Positions 2,421 through 45,625 of a stretch of DNA of 64,000 nt are shown here, one piece after another (position 1 is the stretch's first letter; every line of letters begins with the position of its first letter). The position numbers and the translations under genes are program-made. Where the stretch lies: the NCBI GenBank assembly GCA_910577205.1, contig CAJTMA010000001.1:137840-201839 (forward strand), in the 5' to 3' direction. Under the pieces are notes generated by a model, which worked only from the letters and a program-made list of their open reading frames with translations, was not told the DNA's origin and did not search any database. The DNA is from an uncultured Alphaproteobacteria bacterium (GTDB lineage: Bacteria; Pseudomonadota; Alphaproteobacteria; RF32; CAG-239).

Positions 2421-3548
2421 ATGAAATTTAAACTTTTTGCCTTATCCGCTTTGGCTTTGTTATGGCCTGTCCATACGCAGGCAGCTGATGCCGAATTTGT
2501 TTACAGCGGACGGGTTGATTCCCTTTATAGCTATAATATGCCGGACAGCCGGTATAAGCATAATGACCACCGCGACCATTGGGTTAATATTTTCTCTCTT
2601 AACCTTGGGATAGAAAAAGAATTTGCCGATGATTACCAGTTGGGGTTATATGCCGATTTTAACGCCGGTATCAACAAACGGCAGGATAATTTTAATAACG
2701 GCGACTGGGGACAGGAAGTCTACGGGATTATGGACAGCCCGTATGGCCGGATTATGCTTGGCGAAACCTACAACGTAGCCTATCAGTTTCAGGTTGGCGC
2801 GCCGCGCGTCGGGGCAATCGGGCTGAATGATTCCGACATTGTCAATTTCATGGCGAATCCCAACTGGGTGAAGACAAAGCACGAAACGGCCTACCGGACG
2901 CTAAATTCAACCTCGATGAATACTGACGGTGTCGCGCCGAAAATCAGTTATATCACGCCGGAAATCTATCGCACCAGTTTCGGGGTCAGTTTTACGCCCG
3001 ACACCTATGACCGGCGGGGACTAGTAAATAAGTTTGCCAAATATGCCGATGATACGGCTTATGTTTTCTCGCTCTACAGTGAACAGGATTTGGGGTTTGC
3101 CGATATGTCGGCCGCTTTGGGTTATGGTATTTTTAACCAAGATGACAAAGAATTTACGGCCGGGTTAAGCTTTTATAAGGGTGGCTGGACACTGGGTGCA
3201 AGCTACCGCAAGACTTATGTTGACGGCGGAGATTATAAAATTACACAGCAAAGCCTGAATCCTCGCCTGCCGGATTTGTTTGACAATTACCGCGAAGGAC
3301 AGGCTTGGGATGTTGGTTTGAAGTATGAAATCGGGCCGTTTCAAACCGCATTGTCATATTTGCACAGCGAGGCCAAGGACAGCCGCAACAAAGATGATAT
3401 TATTCTTCTTTCTAACCAATATCAGCTGAACAAATATGTTGACCTTTACCTTGTCGGCGCACAGGTTAATTTCCGCGGCGCAGACCGAACAATTGCCGAG
3501 AACAACAAAGGATACACTGTTGTTGCCGGTGTCGGCCTCCATTTTTAG
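2421..3548 (+). CDS. Outer-membrane beta-barrel protein, porin-like.
   Basis: Signal peptide ending AQA. Alternating amphipathic strands. C-terminal ...VVAGVGLHF with terminal Phe. Confidence 0.6.
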   Translation: MKFKLFALSALALLWPVHTQAADAEFVYSGRVDSLYSYNMPDSRYKHNDHRDHWVNIFSLNLGIEKEFADDYQLGLYADFNAGINKRQDNFNNGDWGQEVYGIMDSPYGRIMLGETYNVAYQFQVGAPRVGAIGLNDSDIVNFMANPNWVKTKHETAYRTLNSTSMNTDGVAPKISYITPEIYRTSFGVSFTPDTYDRRGLVNKFAKYADDTAYVFSLYSEQDLGFADMSAALGYGIFNQDDKEFTAGLSFYKGGWTLGASYRKTYVDGGDYKITQQSLNPRLPDLFDNYREGQAWDVGLKYEIGPFQTALSYLHSEAKDSRNKDDIILLSNQYQLNKYVDLYLVGAQVNFRGADRTIAENNKGYTVVAGVGLHF

Positions 3549-3553
3549 GGAAT

Positions 3554-4183
3554 ATGATTATGCCTGACGTTTTACTGCTTTCTGACAATCAGGGATTTGC
3601 CGATGACCTCGCCGGCCAAATCAGTTTATACACCCCGGAGTTCTCCGTTTACCGGCAAGATGGTGATAACCGGAATTTTGACGTCTATATTTTGGATGAA
3701 AAAAGCCCTTTGGCGGGTAAATTGCGCCAGGAGCACCATAAAGCGCCGATACTCTTACTGGAAAAAGCCGACAGTTCCGCAGATTTTGACCCGGAAATGA
3801 CTGTTTACAAGCCATTCAGCCTGAATGTCTTTTTAAATTTGCTGCGCTCTTGCATCAACCGTTTTGAAAACAGCAGCGACGGCTATTTGCGATTTAACAG
3901 TTATGAACTTCATCCGGCGGCAAAAGAAATTGTTAATTTGCAGAATGGCGAAACCGTCAAACTGACGGAAAAGGAAGTGGCGGTTATTAAATATTTATAC
4001 AAAGCCAAAGACAGAATCGTTTCAAAAAATGACTTGTTACACGATGTTTGGGATTATAATGCCGATGTGACAACACATACGATTGAAACGCATATCTATC
4101 GCCTGCGGCAGAAAGTTGAACATGACAATGCCGAAACGCCGCTGATTATGACCGAAGACGGCGGTTACAGACTTAAATTTTAG
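3554..4183 (+). CDS. OmpR/PhoB-type winged-helix transcriptional regulator with an atypical receiver-like N-terminus.
   Basis: C-terminal trans_reg_C-like segment (THTIETHIYRLRQKVE...GGYRL). N-terminus has D/D/K positions but a degenerate receiver. Confidence 0.55.
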   Translation: MIMPDVLLLSDNQGFADDLAGQISLYTPEFSVYRQDGDNRNFDVYILDEKSPLAGKLRQEHHKAPILLLEKADSSADFDPEMTVYKPFSLNVFLNLLRSCINRFENSSDGYLRFNSYELHPAAKEIVNLQNGETVKLTEKEVAVIKYLYKAKDRIVSKNDLLHDVWDYNADVTTHTIETHIYRLRQKVEHDNAETPLIMTEDGGYRLKF

Positions 4184-4186
4184 GAT

Positions 4187-5461
4187 TTACCGGGAATTTC
4201 CGCCGGGACGCGGGCGCGGTTTTGAACGCGGCTTAGACCGGGGTTTAGCCGGCTGGTTTGCCTGTATGGCTTTTTCCAAACGCTGTTTGGTTTGCGCGTC
4301 AATATTTTTCAAAAATGCCGGGGTTATTGACGGAGCGCCTTTGGTTTTCATTCGCGGCTGGGCTTCAAGACAGGCAATTAAAAGGCGGGCGCGGAATTCA
4401 TCATCTTCAATAGAGGCAAATTCAATCTGGCTGTTATCTTTTGCGGCCTTGGCAACCACATCGGCGAAATCCTTAACGCTCGGAATATCGTCTGTTCCGT
4501 CATCACGAACAACGCCCATGGATAAATTGTATTCGTTGTTGGCTTCCAGATTGAGCTTAGAACCGTCTGCACGAGTAATATCTGCCACAAAATTCGGATT
4601 TTTGGCATCTTCATGATATACAGCCTTATCCCTTGCCGCCACGGCCTGATAATGTTTGCGCCAGCCGTCTTTCCAATTGTCGTTGTTATGCGGCAGAACC
4701 GGCAGGGCATTATCATGCGACACGGCAACAGCTTTGACCAAGCCCGGCATATTTTCCAAAGTTGCGCGCATTGAAGCAATACACTCGTCACAAAACGGCG
4801 GCTGATTTTTCTTTTTGCGCTCCAGCCGCTCTTGTGTCAACCCGATATAACCGCTTTCGCCCATAATACATTTGTCATTGGTGCAGTGTGTGCCCAAATC
4901 CGCGTCATAATGCGTATTGCCCCTTTTGTCATGCGTGGCATTGAGAATATGCCCGAATTCATGCATAAAAATAGTGATAAATAATTCCTTATCATTACAG
5001 GTCTGGGTGGAGAGAACAGCATTAAGCTTTTCAATCCCGTAGCCATAAAAAGACGGTTCTAATTTCTCATTGAGAAGCGTCACAACCAAATCCTGCGAAC
5101 CAGTACGCATCATGTTTTCGGCTTTCAGCTGGCCGTATTTAGCCATATCAACGCCGTTTATGCCTTTTTTGCGATTTTCTGCGGAAGCGGCAAGCAGGTA
5201 CCACTGCTCGGAAGCATAAGGCACAAGATATTTGCCGTTGGGCAGTTTGATAAATTTTTGTTTATAGCCATCGTTCGGCAGGGAAACATATTCATTGACA
5301 TCAATTTCCGATTTATTCTGCGGGCGGCAGTCGCTGAACTCCGCCTTAAATGAGGATTTATATTCAGGAAACAGCGCCAGCATTTCCTCCGCGGCTTCTT
5401 TCGCCCAGAGCTTATATTTCGGATGAGTGCCTGCCGGTGTTTCTATGATTATTTTTTTCAT
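4187..5461 (-). CDS. Archaemetzincin-like zinc metallopeptidase with a ~200-aa C-terminal extension and basic KPRSKPRSKPRPRP tail.
   Basis: HEFGHILNATH (HExxHxxxxxH), then CTNDKCIM (Cx4CxM), then CDEC about 25 aa later. Start overlaps the upstream gene stop (ATGA). Confidence 0.6.
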   Translation of the reverse strand: MKKIIIETPAGTHPKYKLWAKEAAEEMLALFPEYKSSFKAEFSDCRPQNKSEIDVNEYVSLPNDGYKQKFIKLPNGKYLVPYASEQWYLLAASAENRKKGINGVDMAKYGQLKAENMMRTGSQDLVVTLLNEKLEPSFYGYGIEKLNAVLSTQTCNDKELFITIFMHEFGHILNATHDKRGNTHYDADLGTHCTNDKCIMGESGYIGLTQERLERKKKNQPPFCDECIASMRATLENMPGLVKAVAVSHDNALPVLPHNNDNWKDGWRKHYQAVAARDKAVYHEDAKNPNFVADITRADGSKLNLEANNEYNLSMGVVRDDGTDDIPSVKDFADVVAKAAKDNSQIEFASIEDDEFRARLLIACLEAQPRMKTKGAPSITPAFLKNIDAQTKQRLEKAIQANQPAKPRSKPRSKPRPRPGGNSR

Positions 5462-7368
5462 TTGTCTTTTCCTTTGGCGCGCAGCATTTTAAGCAGCGTC
5501 TTTTCTACCGGACGTTCAATCTGACATTTGTGTTTCATTTCTTCGGCATAGCGTTCGCCGATACGCGTTGAGGGGCGTTTGAAATCATTCAGTTTAAAAA
5601 TTTCGCAAACCAAATTGCCTGACACCATACGGCGGCGGCGATTGTCAAAGATGTCACCCAGTTTTCCGGCCTCATAATCAATTTCATCAGGATTTCTGCC
5701 ATCCTGCCGCAACCGCCGGCGGAGGGTTTCCGTTACCCGGCCTTCCGTTTCTTTGGAGGCATCAAACAGCTTAAAGGTATTCTGCCGCTGGCGCTGAATT
5801 AAAATATTATTGGCATCAAAGAAGTAGTCCTGCGCCTGAACATGGCTGAAATAGGCTTCAAAACCTTTGCGGTTAAATCCGGTTTCAGCAGAATTTGTCA
5901 GCTCGGCAAATAATGCAATCTGTTTGAACCAATCAGTTTTGTGATCACCGCATTGTTGTTCAAAATCACGGCTTTTCAGAATATTAGCGCTCTTTTTATC
6001 GCACCAGTAAAGCAAATCGACCATTGGCGGGGTTATGCCAATTTTTTGGGCTTCTATGCCGTCTATCAGCTTGTTATTCAAAACCGACAGAAATTCCCCA
6101 AACTGACGGGTGTCGTTTGTGTTGTCCATTGCCAATTGCCGCGACAAATTGTCTAGTTCTTTATCACCGGTCCGCGGCGCATGATTATTGCTCTTTTGCA
6201 TATTTTCCGCAATGGTTTGTATCAGGCCGGCAGCCGTTTCGCCGGTATCCTGATTAACAATCGTTTCGTATCGGCTGATATCCAGGTAGGCCGGCAAGAA
6301 ATCTTCAGATTGAACATTTTTCAAATCCCCGGCAATCAATGCGGCATTTTCATCGGCTGACGGCTTATCCCCTGACTTAGCGGCCTGATAGTAGTTAAGC
6401 ATATGTCCGACAAGCTCGCTGACACCGATGGTTTCACTGTGTATCATGTCCCTCAAACCGTTAAACTCCGCAACCTCAAGCTCTATCGCTTTGGTACGCA
6501 GAAGCTCCCGTTTGGTCATATCTGGTGTCGGAACTTCCTTCAAAATGCCCAAAGCCTCATTAAAACGGCGCGGCGACCATTCCGATGTGAGAATTTTATT
6601 ATTGTACCCTATCAGCCCATATTCGCCGAAAGCACAATCATGTTCGGCGGAAAGCGTGTTAAAATCAGGCGTTTTATTAATCATCGGAATGACATATTTT
6701 TCAAAACCTTCGGCCATCTCCGGCGTTAAATTGCCCTCATTGAGATAAGTCATGTCAATTTCTTCACAGACTTTAACGAGGGTTTGGGGGTCATCCAACT
6801 TTTGTATTGCCTTATTCACCATCCCCAAGCGGTTAAAATAGGCAGAGGGATTGTCTTGATAAAGCGAGCTAAAAACCTGCAATGCCAGCGGAAACTTGTC
6901 TTTCAGCCCCAGCCCGTTATCCGGAGAGGTTATTCTTTCAGCCGTAATCGCCATAAATTTATGCAAACTATCATCATTCAGACGCTCCGGCGCATAAGTC
7001 ACCATTGCTTTGGCAGACATTGCAAAAATTGCCCGACATAAGGCTTCATCTTTGGGTGTTTCAGTGTTAGGCATAACACGGTCTGCAAAAATCTCTGAAT
7101 AGCCGACTAACTCAGCCAGCTGTTGCGGCTCTAAGCGGTTAATTTCACAAAAGCGGCTGTTCCAATTGCGTGTGACCGCGCCCTCTTTTATTTCAGGGTC
7201 GAAATAACTGTCCATACCCAAATTATAAGCGATTTCAGCCATATTTTTGGCCGCAGAAGCTGCCGCTCCGGCACTTATTCCGGGATGTTGCCGTTTCATC
7301 TCCTCTATGGCTTCTTTGGCCGGAGCTGTTCTTATAAAAACGGCATATAATTCATCAAAATCGCTCAT
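5458..7368 (-). CDS. Hypothetical protein, 636 aa. No motifs I recognise. Translationally coupled to the metzincin gene.
   Basis: Long uninterrupted ORF. 4-nt overlap with the downstream gene. Confidence 0.65.
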   Translation of the reverse strand: MSDFDELYAVFIRTAPAKEAIEEMKRQHPGISAGAAASAAKNMAEIAYNLGMDSYFDPEIKEGAVTRNWNSRFCEINRLEPQQLAELVGYSEIFADRVMPNTETPKDEALCRAIFAMSAKAMVTYAPERLNDDSLHKFMAITAERITSPDNGLGLKDKFPLALQVFSSLYQDNPSAYFNRLGMVNKAIQKLDDPQTLVKVCEEIDMTYLNEGNLTPEMAEGFEKYVIPMINKTPDFNTLSAEHDCAFGEYGLIGYNNKILTSEWSPRRFNEALGILKEVPTPDMTKRELLRTKAIELEVAEFNGLRDMIHSETIGVSELVGHMLNYYQAAKSGDKPSADENAALIAGDLKNVQSEDFLPAYLDISRYETIVNQDTGETAAGLIQTIAENMQKSNNHAPRTGDKELDNLSRQLAMDNTNDTRQFGEFLSVLNNKLIDGIEAQKIGITPPMVDLLYWCDKKSANILKSRDFEQQCGDHKTDWFKQIALFAELTNSAETGFNRKGFEAYFSHVQAQDYFFDANNILIQRQRQNTFKLFDASKETEGRVTETLRRRLRQDGRNPDEIDYEAGKLGDIFDNRRRRMVSGNLVCEIFKLNDFKRPSTRIGERYAEEMKHKCQIERPVEKTLLKMLRAKGKDK

Positions 7369-7529
7369 CTGCAGTTCCTTAAACTTTCTTTGCTTTAATG
7401 TAACATAATATGAAAATTTTGTCTAGAATCAAAATACCCCGGAAAGGGTTAAAAAATTGTGTAAAAATCCGCTCCATACGTTGATATCTTTAAATTATCG
7501 CTTGGTGATTATGAAATTCTGCTATATGA

Positions 7530-10010
<2,481 letters not shown>

Positions 10011-10070: not shown

Positions 10071-10368
10071 TAAGGCATGGGCAGATGTATATACTCAGCC
10101 CGTCAGTCCGGTTGGCGAAGCCTTGAAGCCTGGAGAAAACGTTTCGGAAGGGTTAATACCTGCTGTGCCATCCGGCGGATGTTTATGGATGTTTCACTTC
10201 TCAGCATATTCTGCACGAATAAAATATTTTATACCCAAATAATACAGTCCAAACTATTTACTTCCATTAGCCAAAAATAAACCCTACGCCCATAATTGTT
10301 TGACACTTTGCAGCGCGTATGATATTCTAAATTCAGGTTTTGATTTAGTAATATCTACGAGGTGTGCT

Positions 10369-11172
10369 ATGAAAATGTCCCTGTTCGTTTCTGTCTTTTG
10401 TTGTGCAACGTCCTATTCTCTTATGGCTCAAGCTGACTGTGTGCCAGCGCCGAATTGTGAGGAACTGGGCTTTACTGTGGATGCCTCAAAATGTTCCGGA
10501 GCGGCTCTTAAATGCCCGTGGGATTTATCCAAAGCGGCCTGTAAGGAAAAAGAAGAAATAGAAATTGGTTCAATTCTCTATGGCGATGGGACGGTGGCGA
10601 GCGGTGTCGTAACCGGTAAAACGCCGATAGGTGTGGTCTTTGATGTTGAAAATCGTTTGGCTGTAGCATTAACAAATGTAAAGAAAGATGGTACAGCTGG
10701 AAGTGAAAATATGTATTGGTCAAGTAGTTATTGTGATACGCAGGGATTACAAAATTGCAGCTCTTCAGAGATTTCACTAGGTACAGATTTAATCCCGATT
10801 ACTTGTGGGGTGGATGGACGATTGAATACCAATGCGATATTAGCAAGTACTTGTAACGGCACAACTTATGCAGCTAACGCTACCAACGACTACCAGCCGG
10901 CAGGCTGCACAAAAGACTTTTGTAAAAAGAGCAAGTGGTTTTTACCCAGTTTGAGAGATTTGCAGAATATTTATTTACAAAAAACACAAATTGATGCGTC
11001 ATTGACACTTTTGAACAGTAATGGCGCAACAACTATAAGGAATAGAAATTATTGGTCCTCTACCGAGTGCAATATTAGTGGCGCGTGGGACTTCGGTATG
11101 AGTAATGGTTATAGAAACAACGACTATAAGTACACTGGCAATCTCTTCGTCAGACCGGTTCTCGCTTTTTAA
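10369..11172 (+). CDS. Secreted Cys-rich protein with a C-terminal DUF1566 (Lcl C-terminal-like) domain. Paralog of 49396 and 50447.
   Basis: Signal peptide MKMSLFVSVFCCA...AQA. CxPxCExLG N-terminal motif shared with 50447. WFLPS..DL..IY ... YWSSTE ... VRPV C-terminal pattern. I chose the start at 10369 in preference to the ORF-track 10300. Confidence 0.6.
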   Translation: MKMSLFVSVFCCATSYSLMAQADCVPAPNCEELGFTVDASKCSGAALKCPWDLSKAACKEKEEIEIGSILYGDGTVASGVVTGKTPIGVVFDVENRLAVALTNVKKDGTAGSENMYWSSSYCDTQGLQNCSSSEISLGTDLIPITCGVDGRLNTNAILASTCNGTTYAANATNDYQPAGCTKDFCKKSKWFLPSLRDLQNIYLQKTQIDASLTLLNSNGATTIRNRNYWSSTECNISGAWDFGMSNGYRNNDYKYTGNLFVRPVLAF

Positions 11173-43037: not shown

Positions 43038-43502
43038 ATGATTGTCACAAGTTCTGCAATTCAAAATGGCTATTTTAACGACAAATACGGCAAAAGAGGA
43101 ACAGAAATTATAAAGAAAATACCTCTCGTTTCCTTTCCGTTCACTATCAGCGAAGCGCCGGAAGGCACAAAATCTTTTGCCTGGCTTCTGGAAGATGAAG
43201 ACGCTATTCCTGTTGCCGGTTATTCGTGGATTCACTGGATGGCGGTTAATAACACCTGTCCCGATGTGCCAGAAGATTACAGCCGGGAGGCCACCGATAT
43301 TGTTCAAGGCATAAACAGCTGGAATAAAATCGGTTATGGCGGAATGACCCCGCCCAACAAAACGCACCGTTATGATTTGCACGTTTATGCGTTGGATACG
43401 GAATTAGACCTTAAACCGGGATTTAGAATCGAAGATTTCTATCGGGCTGTCGATAAGCATATGCTTGCCAGCTATACGCTAAGCGGAAAATATACCTATT
43501 AA
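43038..43502 (+). CDS. YbhB/YbcL family PEBP-like protein.
   Basis: HRYDLHVYALD motif typical of bacterial PEBP. 154 aa. Confidence 0.75.
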   Translation: MIVTSSAIQNGYFNDKYGKRGTEIIKKIPLVSFPFTISEAPEGTKSFAWLLEDEDAIPVAGYSWIHWMAVNNTCPDVPEDYSREATDIVQGINSWNKIGYGGMTPPNKTHRYDLHVYALDTELDLKPGFRIEDFYRAVDKHMLASYTLSGKYTY

Positions 43503-44245
43503 TCCAAGCTGTTTTCAATCAAACGGTCAAGATTAATCCGTTCGCTGCTATTGTAGCCGTCAAAGTTTTCTTGAATTTTTTCAGGCTGTTTGGCGGTTTC
43601 TTTTGCTTTTTTGGATTTAACCTGAGGCTGAGCCAGCTTTTCAAACAATTCATCAGCGTCATTTGATTTTTTAGGCGCTTCTTTTTCTTCGGCTTTTTTA
43701 TCTTCCTCTTCAACCGTTTTGCCGCTGACTTCTGCAGCCTTATTGCGAATGGTATCCAAGGTTTCTTTCGGAATCAGGTTTTCAATCGGTTTGGCAAATT
43801 CGCCGGCCAGTTGGAAATAGCGGGAGTTTTTAAAGGTTTCCGGCTGGCGGTCTTTAGGCATCATCCAGCTGATGAGAATGTTTAGCAGAATAACCAGTAA
43901 AAAGGCGCGCATAATGCCAAAAAACAAGCCCAAAACCCGGTCAACCGAGCTTAACTTGCTGGAACGGACTTTACCGACAATATTTCCGGTCAGCAAAATC
44001 CAGATTACCATAAATAAAATCAAGATAAAAATAGACGTAACAACGCCGGCAATCATCCCGTTGGAGATATATTCGCGGGTTATCGGCGTGAAAACCGGCA
44101 GCAGATAGATGATGGCGGCAGAACCAAGCACCCAGCCGATAATCGACAGCACTTCTTTTATCAAACCGCGGCTTAAGGCTATCAGCGCCGATAAACCAAG
44201 GATGATTAAGATAATAATATCAAGATTATTCAAAGGCTGAGACAT
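43499..44245 (-). CDS. cvpA: CvpA family membrane protein.
   Basis: N-terminal TM helices DIIILIILGLSALIALSRGLIKEVLS. Sits upstream of radA. Confidence 0.75.
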   Translation of the reverse strand: MSQPLNNLDIIILIILGLSALIALSRGLIKEVLSIIGWVLGSAAIIYLLPVFTPITREYISNGMIAGVVTSIFILILFMVIWILLTGNIVGKVRSSKLSSVDRVLGLFFGIMRAFLLVILLNILISWMMPKDRQPETFKNSRYFQLAGEFAKPIENLIPKETLDTIRNKAAEVSGKTVEEEDKKAEEKEAPKKSNDADELFEKLAQPQVKSKKAKETAKQPEKIQENFDGYNSSERINLDRLIENSLD

Positions 44246-44254
44246 TTTTCTATC

Positions 44255-45625
44255 CTAGTTAAACCAATTAATTAAGCGTTGGACATTGCCGATTTCGTAA
44301 CAGGTCATATCCAAACTGTGTTTCTTTTCTTTGCTGTGGGTCGGCGGCGTAATAGCGCTGGCGAATCCTAATTTATGCGCTTCCTTTAACCGTGAATTAG
44401 GCTGGCTGACGGCGCGGATTTCGCCAGATAAGCCGATTTCTCCAAAAATAACCGTATCTGCCGGCAGCGGCTTGTTTGTCAAAGAAGAGATTACAGCCAT
44501 CGCAACCGCCAAATCTGCCGCCGGTTCAGAAATTTTCAGCCCTCCGGCAATATTCAGGTAAACATCCTGCGAGCTTAAATTCATGCCGCAGCGGGCTTCC
44601 AGAACAGCCAAGACCATTGCCAGACGGTTGGAATCCCAGCCGACGACAGCACGTTTCGGACTGGCGTATCCCGTGGGACTGACTAGAGCCTGGATTTCTA
44701 CCAAAACCGGGCGCGACCCTTCTATTCCAGCAAAAACGCAAGAGCCGGAAATGTTTCCCTGACGTTCGGCCAAAAACAGCGCCGACGGATTTTCGACTTC
44801 TACCAATCCTTGATCCTGCATTTCGAAAACGCCGATTTCATCCGTTGCGCCATAACGGTTTTTAACCGCGCGCAAAATACGGAAATGGTGGCCGCGTTCA
44901 CCCTCAAAATAAAGCACCGTATCAACCATATGCTCCAGAACACGCGGGCCGGCAATTGCCCCCTGTTTGGTAACGTGCCCGACTAAAAACAAGGCAAAGC
45001 CCTTTTTCTTAGCCAGTTTAATCAGCTCATAGGCGCAGGCACGCACTTGAGATACGCTGCCGGGGGTGGATTCAACTTCATCCAAATACATGGTTTGAAT
45101 CGAATCGATAATCACCACTGCGGCGTTTGATTCCTCCAGAGTGGTGATAATATCCTTTACGCTGGTGGCGCTGGTTAATTTGACCGGAGATTGCTCAAGT
45201 TGTAAGCGTTTGGCACGAATCCGCACCTGATCAATCGCTTCCTCTCCGGAAATGTAATAACATTCTGGATGTGACGGCAGATTTGAAATGCTGGCACAGG
45301 CTTGAAGCAATAACGTTGATTTGCCGATGCCGGGATCGCCGCCGACTAAAATGGCTGAACCAGGAACTAAGCCGCCACCGCAGACGCGGTTTAATTCTCT
45401 AATGCCTGTTACCAGGCGGGTTAAGGCTTCCTGTGAACCGCTAAGAGGAACAAAGTCCAACATACGCCCTTTCTTTTTCGGGGTCAGGTTAGAAAAACCT
45501 TCGCCGCCGACTTTTTCCTCCATAATGGTATTCCATTCGCCGCAGGCATCGCATTTGCCCTGCCATTTGGGATAAACAGCGCCGCAGCCTTGGCATACAA
45601 ATTCACTTCCGCCTTTTTTTGCCAT
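44255..45625 (-). CDS. radA: DNA repair protein RadA/Sms.
   Basis: C4 zinc finger CQGCG...CDACGEW. Walker A GDPGIGKST. KNRYG. Lon-like C-terminus. Confidence 0.95.
   Translation of the reverse strand: MAKKGGSEFVCQGCGAVYPKWQGKCDACGEWNTIMEEKVGGEGFSNLTPKKKGRMLDFVPLSGSQEALTRLVTGIRELNRVCGGGLVPGSAILVGGDPGIGKSTLLLQACASISNLPSHPECYYISGEEAIDQVRIRAKRLQLEQSPVKLTSATSVKDIITTLEESNAAVVIIDSIQTMYLDEVESTPGSVSQVRACAYELIKLAKKKGFALFLVGHVTKQGAIAGPRVLEHMVDTVLYFEGERGHHFRILRAVKNRYGATDEIGVFEMQDQGLVEVENPSALFLAERQGNISGSCVFAGIEGSRPVLVEIQALVSPTGYASPKRAVVGWDSNRLAMVLAVLEARCGMNLSSQDVYLNIAGGLKISEPAADLAVAMAVISSLTNKPLPADTVIFGEIGLSGEIRAVSQPNSRLKEAHKLGFASAITPPTHSKEKKHSLDMTCYEIGNVQRLINWFN

What the first reader, a model, noticed from the sequence alone, without database searches (positions are those of the whole stretch)
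4187..7368. Translationally coupled operon: unknown 636-aa protein plus archaemetzincin-like protease with a long C-terminal extension
The 424-aa product carries the full archaemetzincin signature: HEFGHILNATH, then Cx4CxM, then CxxC.

It is embedded in a much larger protein with a basic KPRSKPRSKPRPRP tail.

It is coupled through an ATGA overlap to a 636-aa protein with no recognisable motifs.

Archaemetzincin-type proteases are uncommon in bacteria. A two-gene module of this kind beside gyrB could be a toxin or effector, or a processing pair.
Basis: partly seen in the sequence, partly recalled or inferred. Interest (0 to 1): 0.6.

Follow-up and report, generated by a model that had tools for sequence, protein, structure and literature searches.

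The report
Modular archaemetzincin-like protease with orphan partner
An uncultured gut alphaproteobacterium carries, beside gyrB, a two-gene operon for an orphan all-helical protein and a divergent archaemetzincin-type zinc protease fused to a new "plug-in" domain with a basic tail, an architecture that resembles a secreted effector, although no secretion was shown.

Summary
The ORFs 5458..7368(-) (636 aa) and 4187..5461(-) (424 aa) overlap by ATGA and lie divergent from gyrB.

- **Protease domain.** The 424-aa protein has an N-terminal metzincin domain. By profile-profile comparison this is a remote archaemetzincin (M54) relative (hhalign 94.5%, E 8e-8). It keeps HExxH, the Met-turn and all four Cys, but has a 15-residue insertion. 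The invariant H192, not H177, aligns with the family's third His. It fails the curated M54 thresholds.
- **C-terminal extension.** It is a confidently folded ~150-aa α/β domain (CTD) followed by a basic tail. The CTD is a shuffled module. In relatives it is fused to ankyrin repeats, Ppx/GppA-like domains and unknown domains, nearly always with a basic "...GGR" C-terminus and never with a signal peptide.
- **Locus history.** A CTD gene sits beside gyrB throughout this uncultured gut lineage. The 636-aa gene is a late, fast-evolving addition found only where gyrB is at least 91% identical.
- **Partner protein.** The 636-aa protein is all-α and has no sequence or fold relatives.

The best reading is a non-Sec modular effector-like protease with a clade-specific accessory protein. 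No secretion system was found. This is a new variant of a known protease kind, joined to a new module.

The parts
5458..7368 (-). Gene 1: a 636-aa orphan all-alpha protein with no signal peptide or TM segment. It is the first gene of the operon.
   Evidence: ORF. 25 homolog clusters, all unnamed. AF2 pLDDT 86.7, all helices. No PDB or BFVD fold match. No family hits.
6604..6645 (-). Invariant loop EHDCAFGEYGLIGY (aa 242-255) of the 636-aa protein. It is the most conserved segment yet has low model confidence.
   Evidence: Invariant columns in alignment A2. pLDDT below 50 at residues 244-248. Coordinates verified.
5458..5461 (-). ATGA stop/start overlap (translational coupling). A Shine-Dalgarno-like AAAGGAAAAG lies just upstream.
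   Evidence: In relatives the two genes are 1-5 nt apart.
4187..5461 (-). Gene 2: a 424-aa protein made of an M54-like metzincin domain, the CTD module and a basic tail.
   Evidence: ORF. 33 homolog clusters. AF2 pLDDT 89.7, pTM 0.80.
4727..5461 (-). N-terminal metzincin catalytic domain (aa 1-245). It is a remote archaemetzincin (M54) relative.
   Evidence: hhalign A1 against solved archaemetzincins: 94.5%, E 7.7e-8. Profile A4 against PDB. Foldseek finds a metzincin fold, with BaP1, ADAM17 and fragilysin at E 5e-5 to 1e-3.
4949..4963 (-). HEFGH: two catalytic zinc ligands (H167, H171) and the general base E168.
   Evidence: H167 114/114, E168 112/114 and H171 114/114 across relatives.
4895..4939 (-). 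15-residue insertion (ATHDKRGNTHYDADL, aa 175-189) relative to archaemetzincins. It is predicted to form a beta-hairpin and contains the non-conserved H177.
   Evidence: Gap in the alignments to 2x7m, 3zvs and 3lmc. Strands 183-186 and 190-193. H177 conserved in 46 of the 117 aligned relatives.
4862..4888 (-). HCTNDKCIM: invariant H192 (probable third zinc ligand), C193 and C198 (half of the Cys4 site) and the Met-turn M200.
   Evidence: H192 113/114, C193 112/114, C198 113/114, M200 109/114. Aligns to the archaemetzincin 'HCx4CxM'.
4781..4792 (-). CDEC: C224 and C227, the second half of the Cys4 zinc-finger-like site.
   Evidence: C224 113/114 and C227 114/114. Cys4-Zn is described for archaemetzincins in PMC3427221.
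4670..4705 (-). Invariant linker motif LPVLPHNNDNWK between the protease domain and the CTD.
   Evidence: L253, P257, H258, N259, W263 and K264 are invariant in A1. The motif is not conserved in CTDs fused to other domains. This is the lowest-pLDDT block of the folded part.
4256..4699 (-). CTD: a ~150-aa alpha/beta module (aa 255-402) with the signature EFxARL[LM]IACLE. It is shuffled among many architectures.
   Evidence: pLDDT about 90. CTD-only matches in dozens of multidomain proteins. Fusions to Ppx/GppA and ankyrin repeats. No Pfam or PDB match.
4190..4255 (-). Disordered basic tail QPAKPRSKPRSKPRPRPGGNSR (the last 25 residues carry net charge +8).
   Evidence: pLDDT 45-64. Across 98 CTD proteins the mean charge of the last 25 aa is +3.2, against +0.4 in controls, and 58/98 end in [GNS][RK]x0-2.
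7369..7568 (.). 200-bp divergent intergenic region shared with gyrB (presumed promoters).
   Evidence: Sequence. Promoter-like sites on the minus strand at 7432-7405 and 7425-7397, but not more than chance would give.
7569..10010 (+). gyrB, the syntenic anchor. A CTD-bearing gene lies divergent from it throughout the lineage.

Best explanation
This is a lineage-specific operon of an uncultured, host-gut alphaproteobacterium. Its gyrB is 96% identical to that of Candidatus Scatocola faecipullorum.

**Gene 2** encodes a three-part protein.
1. An active-looking zinc metalloprotease domain that is a divergent branch of the archaemetzincin (M54) lineage. HExxH, the Met-turn and the Cys4 site are intact. 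A 15-residue hairpin is inserted before the conserved third His (H192).
2. A ~150-aa alpha/beta module (CTD).
3. A disordered, strongly basic tail.

The CTD plus tail behaves as a portable unit. In this lineage it is attached to interchangeable 'warheads': the metzincin, Ppx/GppA-like domains, ankyrin repeats and several unknown domains.

My inference is that the CTD plus tail is a shared delivery or targeting signal for Sec-independent export. The closest analogy is the bipartite C-terminal signal of type IV secretion substrates. On this reading the metzincin domain cleaves a protein in the recipient (host or competitor) cell.

**Gene 1** (636 aa, all-alpha, orphan) was added at the promoter-proximal position in one sub-clade and is translated in step with the protease. 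I infer that it is a clade-specific accessory protein: a cofactor, regulator, 'metaeffector' or co-delivered partner.

**What is shown:** gene structure, coupling, fold, M54 homology, residue conservation, modularity of the CTD, tail properties, absence of signal peptides, and phylogenetic distribution.

**What is inferred:** secretion, the role of the CTD as a signal, protease activity, and any physical or functional interaction between the two proteins.
For: **Structure and homology**
- AF2 pLDDT 89.7 and a metzincin fold.
- hhalign against archaemetzincins gives 94.5%, E 7.7e-8. Profile A4 hits the four solved archaemetzincins at E 6e-12 to 5e-10.
- The catalytic and metal residues are near-invariant in 117 relatives.

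**Modularity of the CTD**
- The exhaustive profile search found 463 hits, including dozens of CTD-only multidomain proteins.
- Fusions include Ppx/GppA, ankyrin repeats at E 7e-50, and a recurrent 350-aa 'WKLHLD' domain placed before or after the CTD.
- At the same gyrB-adjacent locus the N-terminal domain is swapped between clades.

**Signal-like features**
- Basic tails are kept whichever folded domain comes last: mean +3.2 against +0.4, and 58/98 end in '..GGR'-type termini.
- None of 103 CTD proteins and none of 25 636-family proteins has a signal-peptide-like or TM-like segment.

**Evolution and context**
- Divergence is fast relative to neighbours: metzincin 36-73% and 636-aa protein 50-64%, against gyrB 81-96%.
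- CTD genes are scattered singly among housekeeping genes.
- The 636-metzincin adjacency (0-5 nt) holds in every locus with a 636-aa homolog, down to 50% identity.
- Functional precedents for 'conserved C-terminal domain plus disordered basic or Q-rich tail' as a T4SS signal are given in PMC8740702.
Against: - No secretion system was found in the window or in any fetched flank. Whether these genomes encode a T4SS could not be tested.
- The CTD matches neither the XVIPCD Pfam model nor any solved structure. Its predicted topology (α-β4-α-β-α3) differs from both XVIPCD (ααβββ) and BID (four-helix bundle).
- The locus is vertically inherited in the core, origin-proximal chromosome, with normal GC. 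That fits a cellular function equally well.
- Known archaemetzincins are cytosolic, and one bacterial homolog (CarG) is a transcription co-factor (PMC3427221).
- Most clades carry the protease without the 636-aa gene, so the partner is not required for basic function.
- A 636-aa protein is atypical for a secretion chaperone or an immunity protein.
Confidence: 0.42

Rival explanations
1. A cytoplasmic, lineage-specific regulatory or housekeeping protease. The M54-like domain acts inside the cell, proteolytically or as a CarG-like zinc-dependent co-regulator. The CTD is an intracellular targeting or partner-binding domain. The basic tail binds nucleic acid or an acidic surface, possibly in connection with the conserved neighbour gyrB and the origin-proximal region. 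The 636-aa protein is a substrate, scaffold or regulator.
For: - Archaemetzincins are cytosolic, and CarG is a transcriptional co-factor (PMC3427221).
- There is no signal peptide.
- Synteny with gyrB is strict across gyrB identities of 81-100%.
- The chromosomal context is core, with normal GC.
- No secretion genes are nearby.
- pTM 0.80 suggests the CTD packs against the protease domain in a defined way.
Against: - A housekeeping role does not explain fusion of the same CTD to ankyrin repeats, Ppx/GppA-like and several unknown domains, or the domain swapping at one locus.
- Divergence is very fast next to slowly evolving neighbours.
- The catalytic Glu is retained (112/114), unlike CarG, which has HQxxH.
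- The conserved terminal '...GGR' tails look like a signal rather than a nucleic-acid-binding surface.
Confidence: 0.33
2. An interbacterial toxin-immunity pair. The metzincin-CTD protein is an antibacterial effector, analogous to Xanthomonas X-Tfe proteins, which carry a C-terminal XVIPCD. The upstream, co-translated 636-aa protein is its cognate immunity protein or inhibitor.
For: - The operon is bicistronic and tightly coupled, with the partner upstream. [quoted passage not shown]
- The architecture is modular, with a C-terminal domain and tail.
- The partner evolves fast (50-64% identity).
Against: - Most clades encode the same protease with no partner gene at all.
- A 636-aa all-alpha protein is far larger than typical immunity proteins.
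- There are no PADLOC or Pfam toxin or immunity hits.
- The XVIPCD Pfam model is not matched.
- No polymorphic arrays or orphan immunity genes were seen.
Confidence: 0.1
3. An adamalysin/reprolysin-type (M12B-like) or fragilysin-like secreted metalloprotease, rather than an archaemetzincin relative.
For: - The top Foldseek PDB hits are snake-venom metalloproteinases, ADAM17 and B. fragilis toxin (E 5e-5 to 1e-3).
- 19 of 28 family members give sub-threshold Reprolysin_5 hits, and none of 28 hits Peptidase_M54.
- The window protein reads HEFGHILNATHD, which resembles HExxHxxGxxHD.
Against: - All reprolysin hits fall below the gathering thresholds.
- Profile searches rank archaemetzincins about 7 orders of magnitude ahead of ADAMTS, and the direct hhalign gives 94.5%.
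- The four invariant Cys follow the archaemetzincin Cx4CxM...CxxC pattern.
- H177 and D178 are not conserved in the family.
- There is no signal peptide or pro-domain.
Confidence: 0.08

Closest known systems
Archaemetzincins (MEROPS M54; Pfam PF07998; structures 2x7m, 3zvs/4a3w, 4axq, 3lmc; AMZ-tk; human AMZ1/2)
   Same: - Metzincin fold with a HExxH active-site helix.
- A His-Cys pair followed by Cx4CxM (Met-turn) and a downstream CxxC, giving four invariant Cys like the Cys4 zinc finger (PMC3427221).
- No signal peptide.
- Profile-profile homology.
- AMZ-tk shows that such enzymes can be real zinc proteases (PMC4681839).
   Different: - A 15-residue insertion lies between HExxHxx(G/N) and the HC.
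- Gly is replaced by Asn in the window protein.
- The M-to-CxxC spacing is 23 residues, not 17.
- The N-terminal sub-domain is larger, with extra helices (aa 44-120).
- The domain is fused to a 150-aa CTD and a basic tail (424 aa, against about 160-210 aa).
- It fails the curated thresholds: no PF07998 hit, and NF033823 scores 16 bits against 145.
CarG of Myxococcus xanthus (a bacterial archaemetzincin homolog acting as a transcription co-factor)
   Same: A bacterial, cytoplasmic M54-type protein with a non-canonical role (as cited in PMC3427221). It is a precedent for the rival cytoplasmic-regulator reading.
   Different: CarG has Gln in place of the catalytic Glu. The family here keeps Glu in 112/114 relatives. 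CarG lacks the CTD and tail. It was not compared directly by sequence here.
X-Tfe effectors with the XVIPCD domain (Xanthomonadales antibacterial T4SS)
   Same: The logic is the same. Variable N-terminal enzymatic domains are joined to a conserved C-terminal domain of about 120-150 aa, followed by a disordered tail with Q-rich and positively charged zones. That signal is needed for VirD4 recognition and translocation (PMC8740702). The effectors are often bicistronic with a partner gene.
   Different: - There is no sequence match to the XVIPCD Pfam model.
- The predicted topology is α-β4-α-β-α3, against ααβββ.
- The taxon is different (Alphaproteobacteria).
- No T4SS has been shown.
- In some proteins the CTD is internal and is followed by another domain.
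Bartonella Bep effectors (BID domain plus positively charged tail) and Agrobacterium VirF/VirE2 C-terminal Arg-rich signals
   Same: These are alphaproteobacterial T4SS substrates with a modular N-terminal effector domain, a conserved C-terminal domain and a basic disordered tail (as discussed in PMC8740702).
   Different: BID is a four-helix bundle, whereas the CTD is predicted to be mixed alpha/beta. No homology was detected, and secretion is untested.
Adamalysin/ADAM and fragilysin catalytic domains (M12B, M10C)
   Same: These are the best overall fold matches (TM to target 0.45-0.54). Weak reprolysin-like Pfam hits also occur.
   Different: Those enzymes are secreted with signal and pro-peptides and use disulfides where this family has a Cys4 pattern. 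Their sequence-profile support is much weaker than for M54.

Membership tests
Archaemetzincin (M54) | HExxH with a catalytic Glu and two His ligands | tested here: met
   HEFGH at aa 167-171. H167 114/114, E168 112/114 and H171 114/114 in relatives.
Archaemetzincin (M54) | Contiguous extended signature HExxHxxGxxHCx4CxMx17CxxC (PMC3427221) | tested here: not met
   The window protein reads HEFGHILN-ATH-(x14)-HCx4CIM-x23-CxxC. Gly is replaced by Asn, there is a 15-residue insertion relative to 2x7m, 3zvs and 3lmc, and the Met-to-CxxC spacer is longer.
Archaemetzincin (M54) | Four conserved Cys (Cys4 zinc finger) and a Met-turn | tested here: met
   C193, C198, C224 and C227 are each conserved in at least 112/114 relatives, and M200 in 109/114. 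Metal binding itself cannot be tested here.
Archaemetzincin (M54) | Score above curated family thresholds (Pfam PF07998 GA 24.4; NCBIfam NF033823 cutoff 145) | tested here: not met
   There is no PF07998 hit for the window protein or for any of the 28 family members. NF033823 scores 16.3 bits, over aa 191-228 only. Two stand-alone relatives, P0160 and P0161, do pass PF07998.
Archaemetzincin (M54) | Detectable homology to solved archaemetzincins | tested here: met
   hhalign of family A1 against 2x7m, 3zvs and 3lmc fragments gives probability 94.5%, E 7.7e-8. Profile A4 against PDB gives E 6e-12 to 5e-10.
Archaemetzincin (M54) | Archaemetzincins are the closest solved folds | tested here: inconclusive
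Adamalysin/reprolysin (M12B) | Pfam Reprolysin-family score above the gathering threshold; HExxHxxGxxHD; secretory pro-enzyme | tested here: not met
   The best hit is Reprolysin_5 at 22.1 bits, below 27. In the family, 19/28 members have sub-threshold hits only. H177 is conserved in 46 of the 117 aligned relatives. There is no signal peptide.
XVIPCD T4SS translocation domain (X-Tfe) | Match to the XVIPCD sequence model; ααβββ core followed by a Q-rich or basic tail | tested here: not met
   The CTD has no Pfam hit at E up to 5 and no PDB sequence hit. Its predicted secondary structure differs (against PMC8740702). Only the 'domain plus basic tail' logic is shared.
BID domain (Bartonella Bep / relaxase T4SS signal) | Four-helix-bundle domain followed by a positively charged tail | tested here: not met
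   The CTD is predicted to contain five beta-strands. The tail criterion is met. There is no sequence hit.
T4SS (or other Sec-independent) effector in general | The genome encodes the cognate secretion machine, and the protein is translocated | not testable with these tools
   No secretion genes appear in the window or in the fetched flanks.
Anti-phage defence / phage-encoded protein | Match to PADLOC or PHROG models, or presence on viral contigs | tested here: not met
   There are no PADLOC hits and no PHROG hits. Neither the CTD nor the 636-aa family has relatives on IMG/VR contigs.

The most novel reading that the evidence does not exclude
The CTD together with its basic '...GGR' tail may be a previously unrecognised translocation signal. 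It would define a whole repertoire of Sec-independent effectors in abundant, uncultured gut Alphaproteobacteria: metzincin, ankyrin-repeat, Ppx/GppA-like and 'WKLHLD'-domain proteins. On this reading the window protein is the first archaemetzincin-type effector protease, and the 636-aa orphan is its co-delivered regulator (metaeffector) with a new all-alpha fold.
Probability: 0.3. Interest if true: 0.8.

Novelty: new variant of a known kind. Interest (0 to 1): 0.52.

Why it matters
Archaemetzincins are a metzincin family whose biological role remains largely unknown. [quoted passage not shown] This locus shows a bacterial branch of that family with a remodelled zinc-site region, fused to a portable domain.

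That portable domain and its conserved basic C-terminus mark dozens of otherwise unrelated multidomain proteins, including ankyrin-repeat proteins. All the carriers that could be traced to an organism are uncultured gut and rumen Alphaproteobacteria, which are common in human and animal metagenomes. One 636-aa variant alone was seen on 212 contigs.

If the module is a delivery signal, it gives a sequence handle for cataloguing a complete and so far invisible effector set of a common gut lineage. It would also give archaemetzincins a testable function. If instead the module is an intracellular targeting domain, it is still a new protein-interaction module, tied to a conserved gyrB-adjacent hot-spot of domain shuffling. 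The 636-aa partner adds a confidently predicted fold with no match in the PDB or BFVD.

Tried and rejected
- **Single-sequence and family-profile searches against PDB sequences.** Searches with the 424-aa protein found nothing relevant. Only a profile that included stand-alone relatives and hhalign revealed the M54 link.
- **Rosetta-stone test.** I asked whether the 636-aa family is related to any domain fused to the CTD elsewhere. HMM and hhalign comparisons against the X, Y, Z, CTD and N-domain profiles were all negative.
- **The 'WKLHLD' (X) domain.** Only weak RamC_N hits were found (E 0.004-0.02), and there was nothing in Pfam or PDB with profiles. It is left unassigned.
- **Defence system or phage origin.** Rejected: PADLOC, PHROGs and IMG/VR were all negative.
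- **Horizontal-transfer island.** Rejected: GC is normal, the context is core and synteny is conserved.
- **CTD-profile word-index search.** It recovered mostly fragments.
- **Metagenome scan.** It added only 13 loci, consistent with the earlier picture.
- **Literature searches.** Searches on the lineage (RF32) and its secretion systems gave nothing usable.

Full report
**1. Observation**

The window contains the two ORFs exactly as described: 5458..7368(-) for 636 aa and 4187..5461(-) for 424 aa. The stop of the first and the start of the second overlap as ATGA at 5458..5461, preceded by AAAGGAAAAG. The first gene has its own TAAGGAA ribosome-binding site.

gyrB (7569..10010, +) is divergent across 200 bp. 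The promoter-like matches there are no more frequent than chance. Downstream, the 424-aa gene converges on an OmpR-type regulator gene, with only 3 nt between the two stop codons.

GC content is unremarkable. The rest of the window is core, origin-proximal chromosome: gidB-parAB, polA, dnaK, mutS and radA. Both ORFs are real genes, with conserved families (33 and 25 clusters) and confident AlphaFold models (pLDDT 89.7 and 86.7).

**2. Organism**

Every relative comes from an uncultured Alphaproteobacteria MAG or a metagenome from human, chicken, Hadza, deer-rumen or cattle-rumen samples. The closest named genome is Candidatus Scatocola faecipullorum, with gyrB 96% identical. Public sources call the proteins only 'hypothetical protein'.

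**3. The protease domain**

Single-sequence scans give only sub-threshold hits:
- Reprolysin_5 scores 22 bits against a cutoff of 27.
- NCBIfam 'archmetzin' scores 16 bits against 145, and covers only aa 191-228.
- None of the 28 family members hits Pfam Peptidase_M54, whereas 19 of 28 touch Reprolysin_5 weakly.

Foldseek with the whole model returns metzincin catalytic domains: BaP1 at 4.7e-5, ADAM17 and fragilysin, with TM to target 0.45-0.54.

An exhaustive profile search of 1.84 billion representatives found 463 hits. Among them are many stand-alone proteins of about 200-260 aa that match the catalytic core. Two of these pass the Pfam M54 threshold.

A profile built from the window N-domain plus 12 such relatives hits all four solved archaemetzincins at E 6e-12 to 5e-10, against 7e-4 for ADAMTS-5. 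Direct hhalign of the 28-member family against the solved archaemetzincin sequences, without the intermediates, gives 94.5% probability and E 7.7e-8.

Both alignments place a 13-15-residue insertion between HExxHxx(G/N) and the 'HC'. Conservation over 117 relatives is:

| Residue | Conserved in |
|---|---|
| H167 | 114/114 |
| E168 | 112/114 |
| H171 | 114/114 |
| H192 | 113/114 |
| C193, C198, C224, C227 | at least 112/114 each |
| M200 | 109/114 |
| H177 | 46 of the 117 aligned |

The family-wide third His is H192, homologous to the His of the archaemetzincin 'HCx4CxM' (signature from PMC3427221). Which His binds zinc in this particular protein cannot be decided without coordinates.

My conclusion is that this is a divergent, insertion-bearing branch of the archaemetzincin lineage. 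It is catalytically intact by sequence but falls outside the curated family thresholds.

**4. The C-terminal extension is a mobile module**

Residues 255-402 are predicted with about 90 pLDDT as α-β4-α-β-α3, followed by a disordered basic tail.

In more distant genomes the gene beside gyrB encodes other CTD-bearing proteins:
- An 1144-aa protein: metzincin, a ~730-aa insert, then the CTD (L022).
- An 1132-aa protein: Ppx/GppA (Pfam 9e-15), then the CTD, then a 350-aa 'WKLHLD' domain (L026).
- 1165-aa and 1348-aa variants (L045 and L047).
- A 760-aa protein: metzincin, CTD, then the WKLHLD domain (L027).

Elsewhere the CTD is fused to ankyrin repeats (P0114, E 7e-50), to Ppx/GppA-like domains (L025 and P0138) and to at least two further unknown domain families. 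Such genes lie singly among housekeeping genes.

The CTD has no Pfam, PDB, PADLOC or PHROG match and no viral relatives.

Across 98 full-length CTD proteins the last 25 residues carry a mean net charge of +3.2, against +0.4 in control ORFs. In 58 of them the C-terminus ends in a G/N/S-R/K motif, typically GGR(S/P), whether the last folded domain is the CTD or the WKLHLD domain. None of 103 CTD proteins has a signal-peptide-like or TM-like segment.

**5. The 636-aa partner**

It is all-alpha (pLDDT 86.7). It has no match in any of these searches:
- PDB fold search (best E 0.26) and BFVD fold search.
- Pfam, NCBIfam, PADLOC, PHROG and PDB-sequence searches.
- A search for relatives on viral contigs.
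- HMM and hhalign comparisons with any domain fused to the CTD elsewhere.

Its most conserved segment, EHDCxFGEYGLIGY, is a low-confidence loop.

**6. Distribution of the pair**

A CTD-bearing gene lies divergent from gyrB in every locus where both could be seen. The exceptions are CTD paralogs located elsewhere (L025, L031, L032, L046).

The 636-aa gene is present in every locus with gyrB at least 91% identical to the window's. These loci hold 636-aa homologs at 99%, 64%, 56-58% and 50-51% identity, always 0-5 nt upstream of the metzincin gene. The gene is absent from every locus with gyrB at or below 86% identity. The partner is therefore a late addition to an older locus.

Rates of divergence from the window differ sharply:

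| Protein | Identity to window |
|---|---|
| gyrB (loci carrying the 636-aa gene) | 91-96% |
| porin | 73-83% |
| regulator | 64-72% |
| metzincin-CTD protein (same loci) | 57-73% |
| 636-aa protein | 50-64% |
| metzincin-CTD protein (where gyrB is 81-86%) | 30-47% |

**7. Mechanism**

The evidence establishes a probably active M54-like zinc protease joined to a portable domain and a conserved basic C-terminus, with no Sec signal. It evolves fast and is subject to 'warhead' swapping at a fixed locus.

The best-fitting known logic is that of type IV secretion substrates, in which a conserved C-terminal domain plus a disordered basic or Q-rich tail is the translocation signal (XVIPCD, BID and VirF; PMC8740702). 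Ankyrin-repeat fusions fit an effector repertoire; that association rests on established knowledge, not on a test made here.

I therefore favour a Sec-independent modular effector protease, with the 636-aa protein as a clade-specific accessory (confidence about 0.4). Secretion, the signal role of the CTD, protease activity and any interaction between the two proteins are all inferred.

The main rival (about 0.33) is an intracellular regulatory or housekeeping role. It is supported by the cytosolic nature of known archaemetzincins, by the CarG precedent, by the strict core-genome synteny with gyrB and by the absence of any secretion genes in the sequence examined. A toxin-immunity pair (about 0.1) is weakened because most clades lack the partner gene. 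An M12B assignment (about 0.08) is weakened by the profile evidence.

**8. Novelty**

The protease is a new variant of a known kind: an M54-like enzyme with an insertion and a new fusion. The CTD module and the 636-aa fold have no described relatives.

Interest is moderate as things stand. It would be high if the CTD and tail prove to be a delivery signal that defines an effector set in a common gut lineage.

Noticed in passing
window 3554..4183 (+) and 2421..3548 (+): A 209-aa OmpR-type regulator has a clear Trans_reg_C domain (1.4e-19), but its N-terminal half gave no Pfam receiver-domain hit, so the receiver is atypical or degenerate. It is always paired with the adjacent Porin_4 gene in related genomes. 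Relative to gyrB, that pair sits on different sides in different clades. The regulator's stop codon is 3 nt from the convergent metzincin gene's stop codon.
   Followed up: partly
window 4670..4705 (-), aa 253-264 of the 424-aa protein: The linker motif LPVLPHNNxxWK between the protease and the CTD is invariant, and it is specific to metzincin-CTD proteins. It falls in the lowest-confidence block of the folded region. It could be a latency ('His-switch') segment or a processing site. This could not be tested without model coordinates.
   Followed up: no
L027 8916..11198; L026 3067..6465; L045 and L047: A recurrent ~350-aa domain (consensus GWKLHLDVVPNRNDP...HGGENGKGMTIYVG) accompanies the CTD in 28 proteins. 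Three of them give only weak RamC_N (lanthipeptide-synthetase lyase-like) hits, and there is no PDB match.
   Followed up: partly
L025 1987..3699 and 5014..6525: One CTD paralog (Ppx/GppA-like domain plus CTD, 503 aa) lies near a large serine recombinase rather than gyrB. This hints that some copies may sit on integrative elements. Searches of viral contigs for the CTD were negative.
   Followed up: partly
window 10300..11172 (+): A 290-aa protein with a sub-threshold Lcl_C (Legionella collagen-like protein C-terminal) domain and a Cys-rich N-terminal region. It is conserved next to gyrB in close relatives.
   Followed up: no
window 43499..45625 (-) compared with L005/L006: In relatives that lack the 636-aa gene, the metzincin gene is followed directly by cvpA-radA-mlaEF-hprK-tsaE...parBA-gidB. 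In the window those genes lie about 38 kb away, which indicates a clade-specific rearrangement around gyrB.
   Followed up: partly
proteins P0144-P0208: There is a sizeable group of stand-alone proteins of about 200-260 aa with HExGHxxG...GxHCx3-4CxM...CxxC. They appear to bridge this family and the canonical archaemetzincins. Most of those tested are below or near the Pfam M54 threshold, so they may form an under-annotated bacterial M54-like clade.
   Followed up: partly
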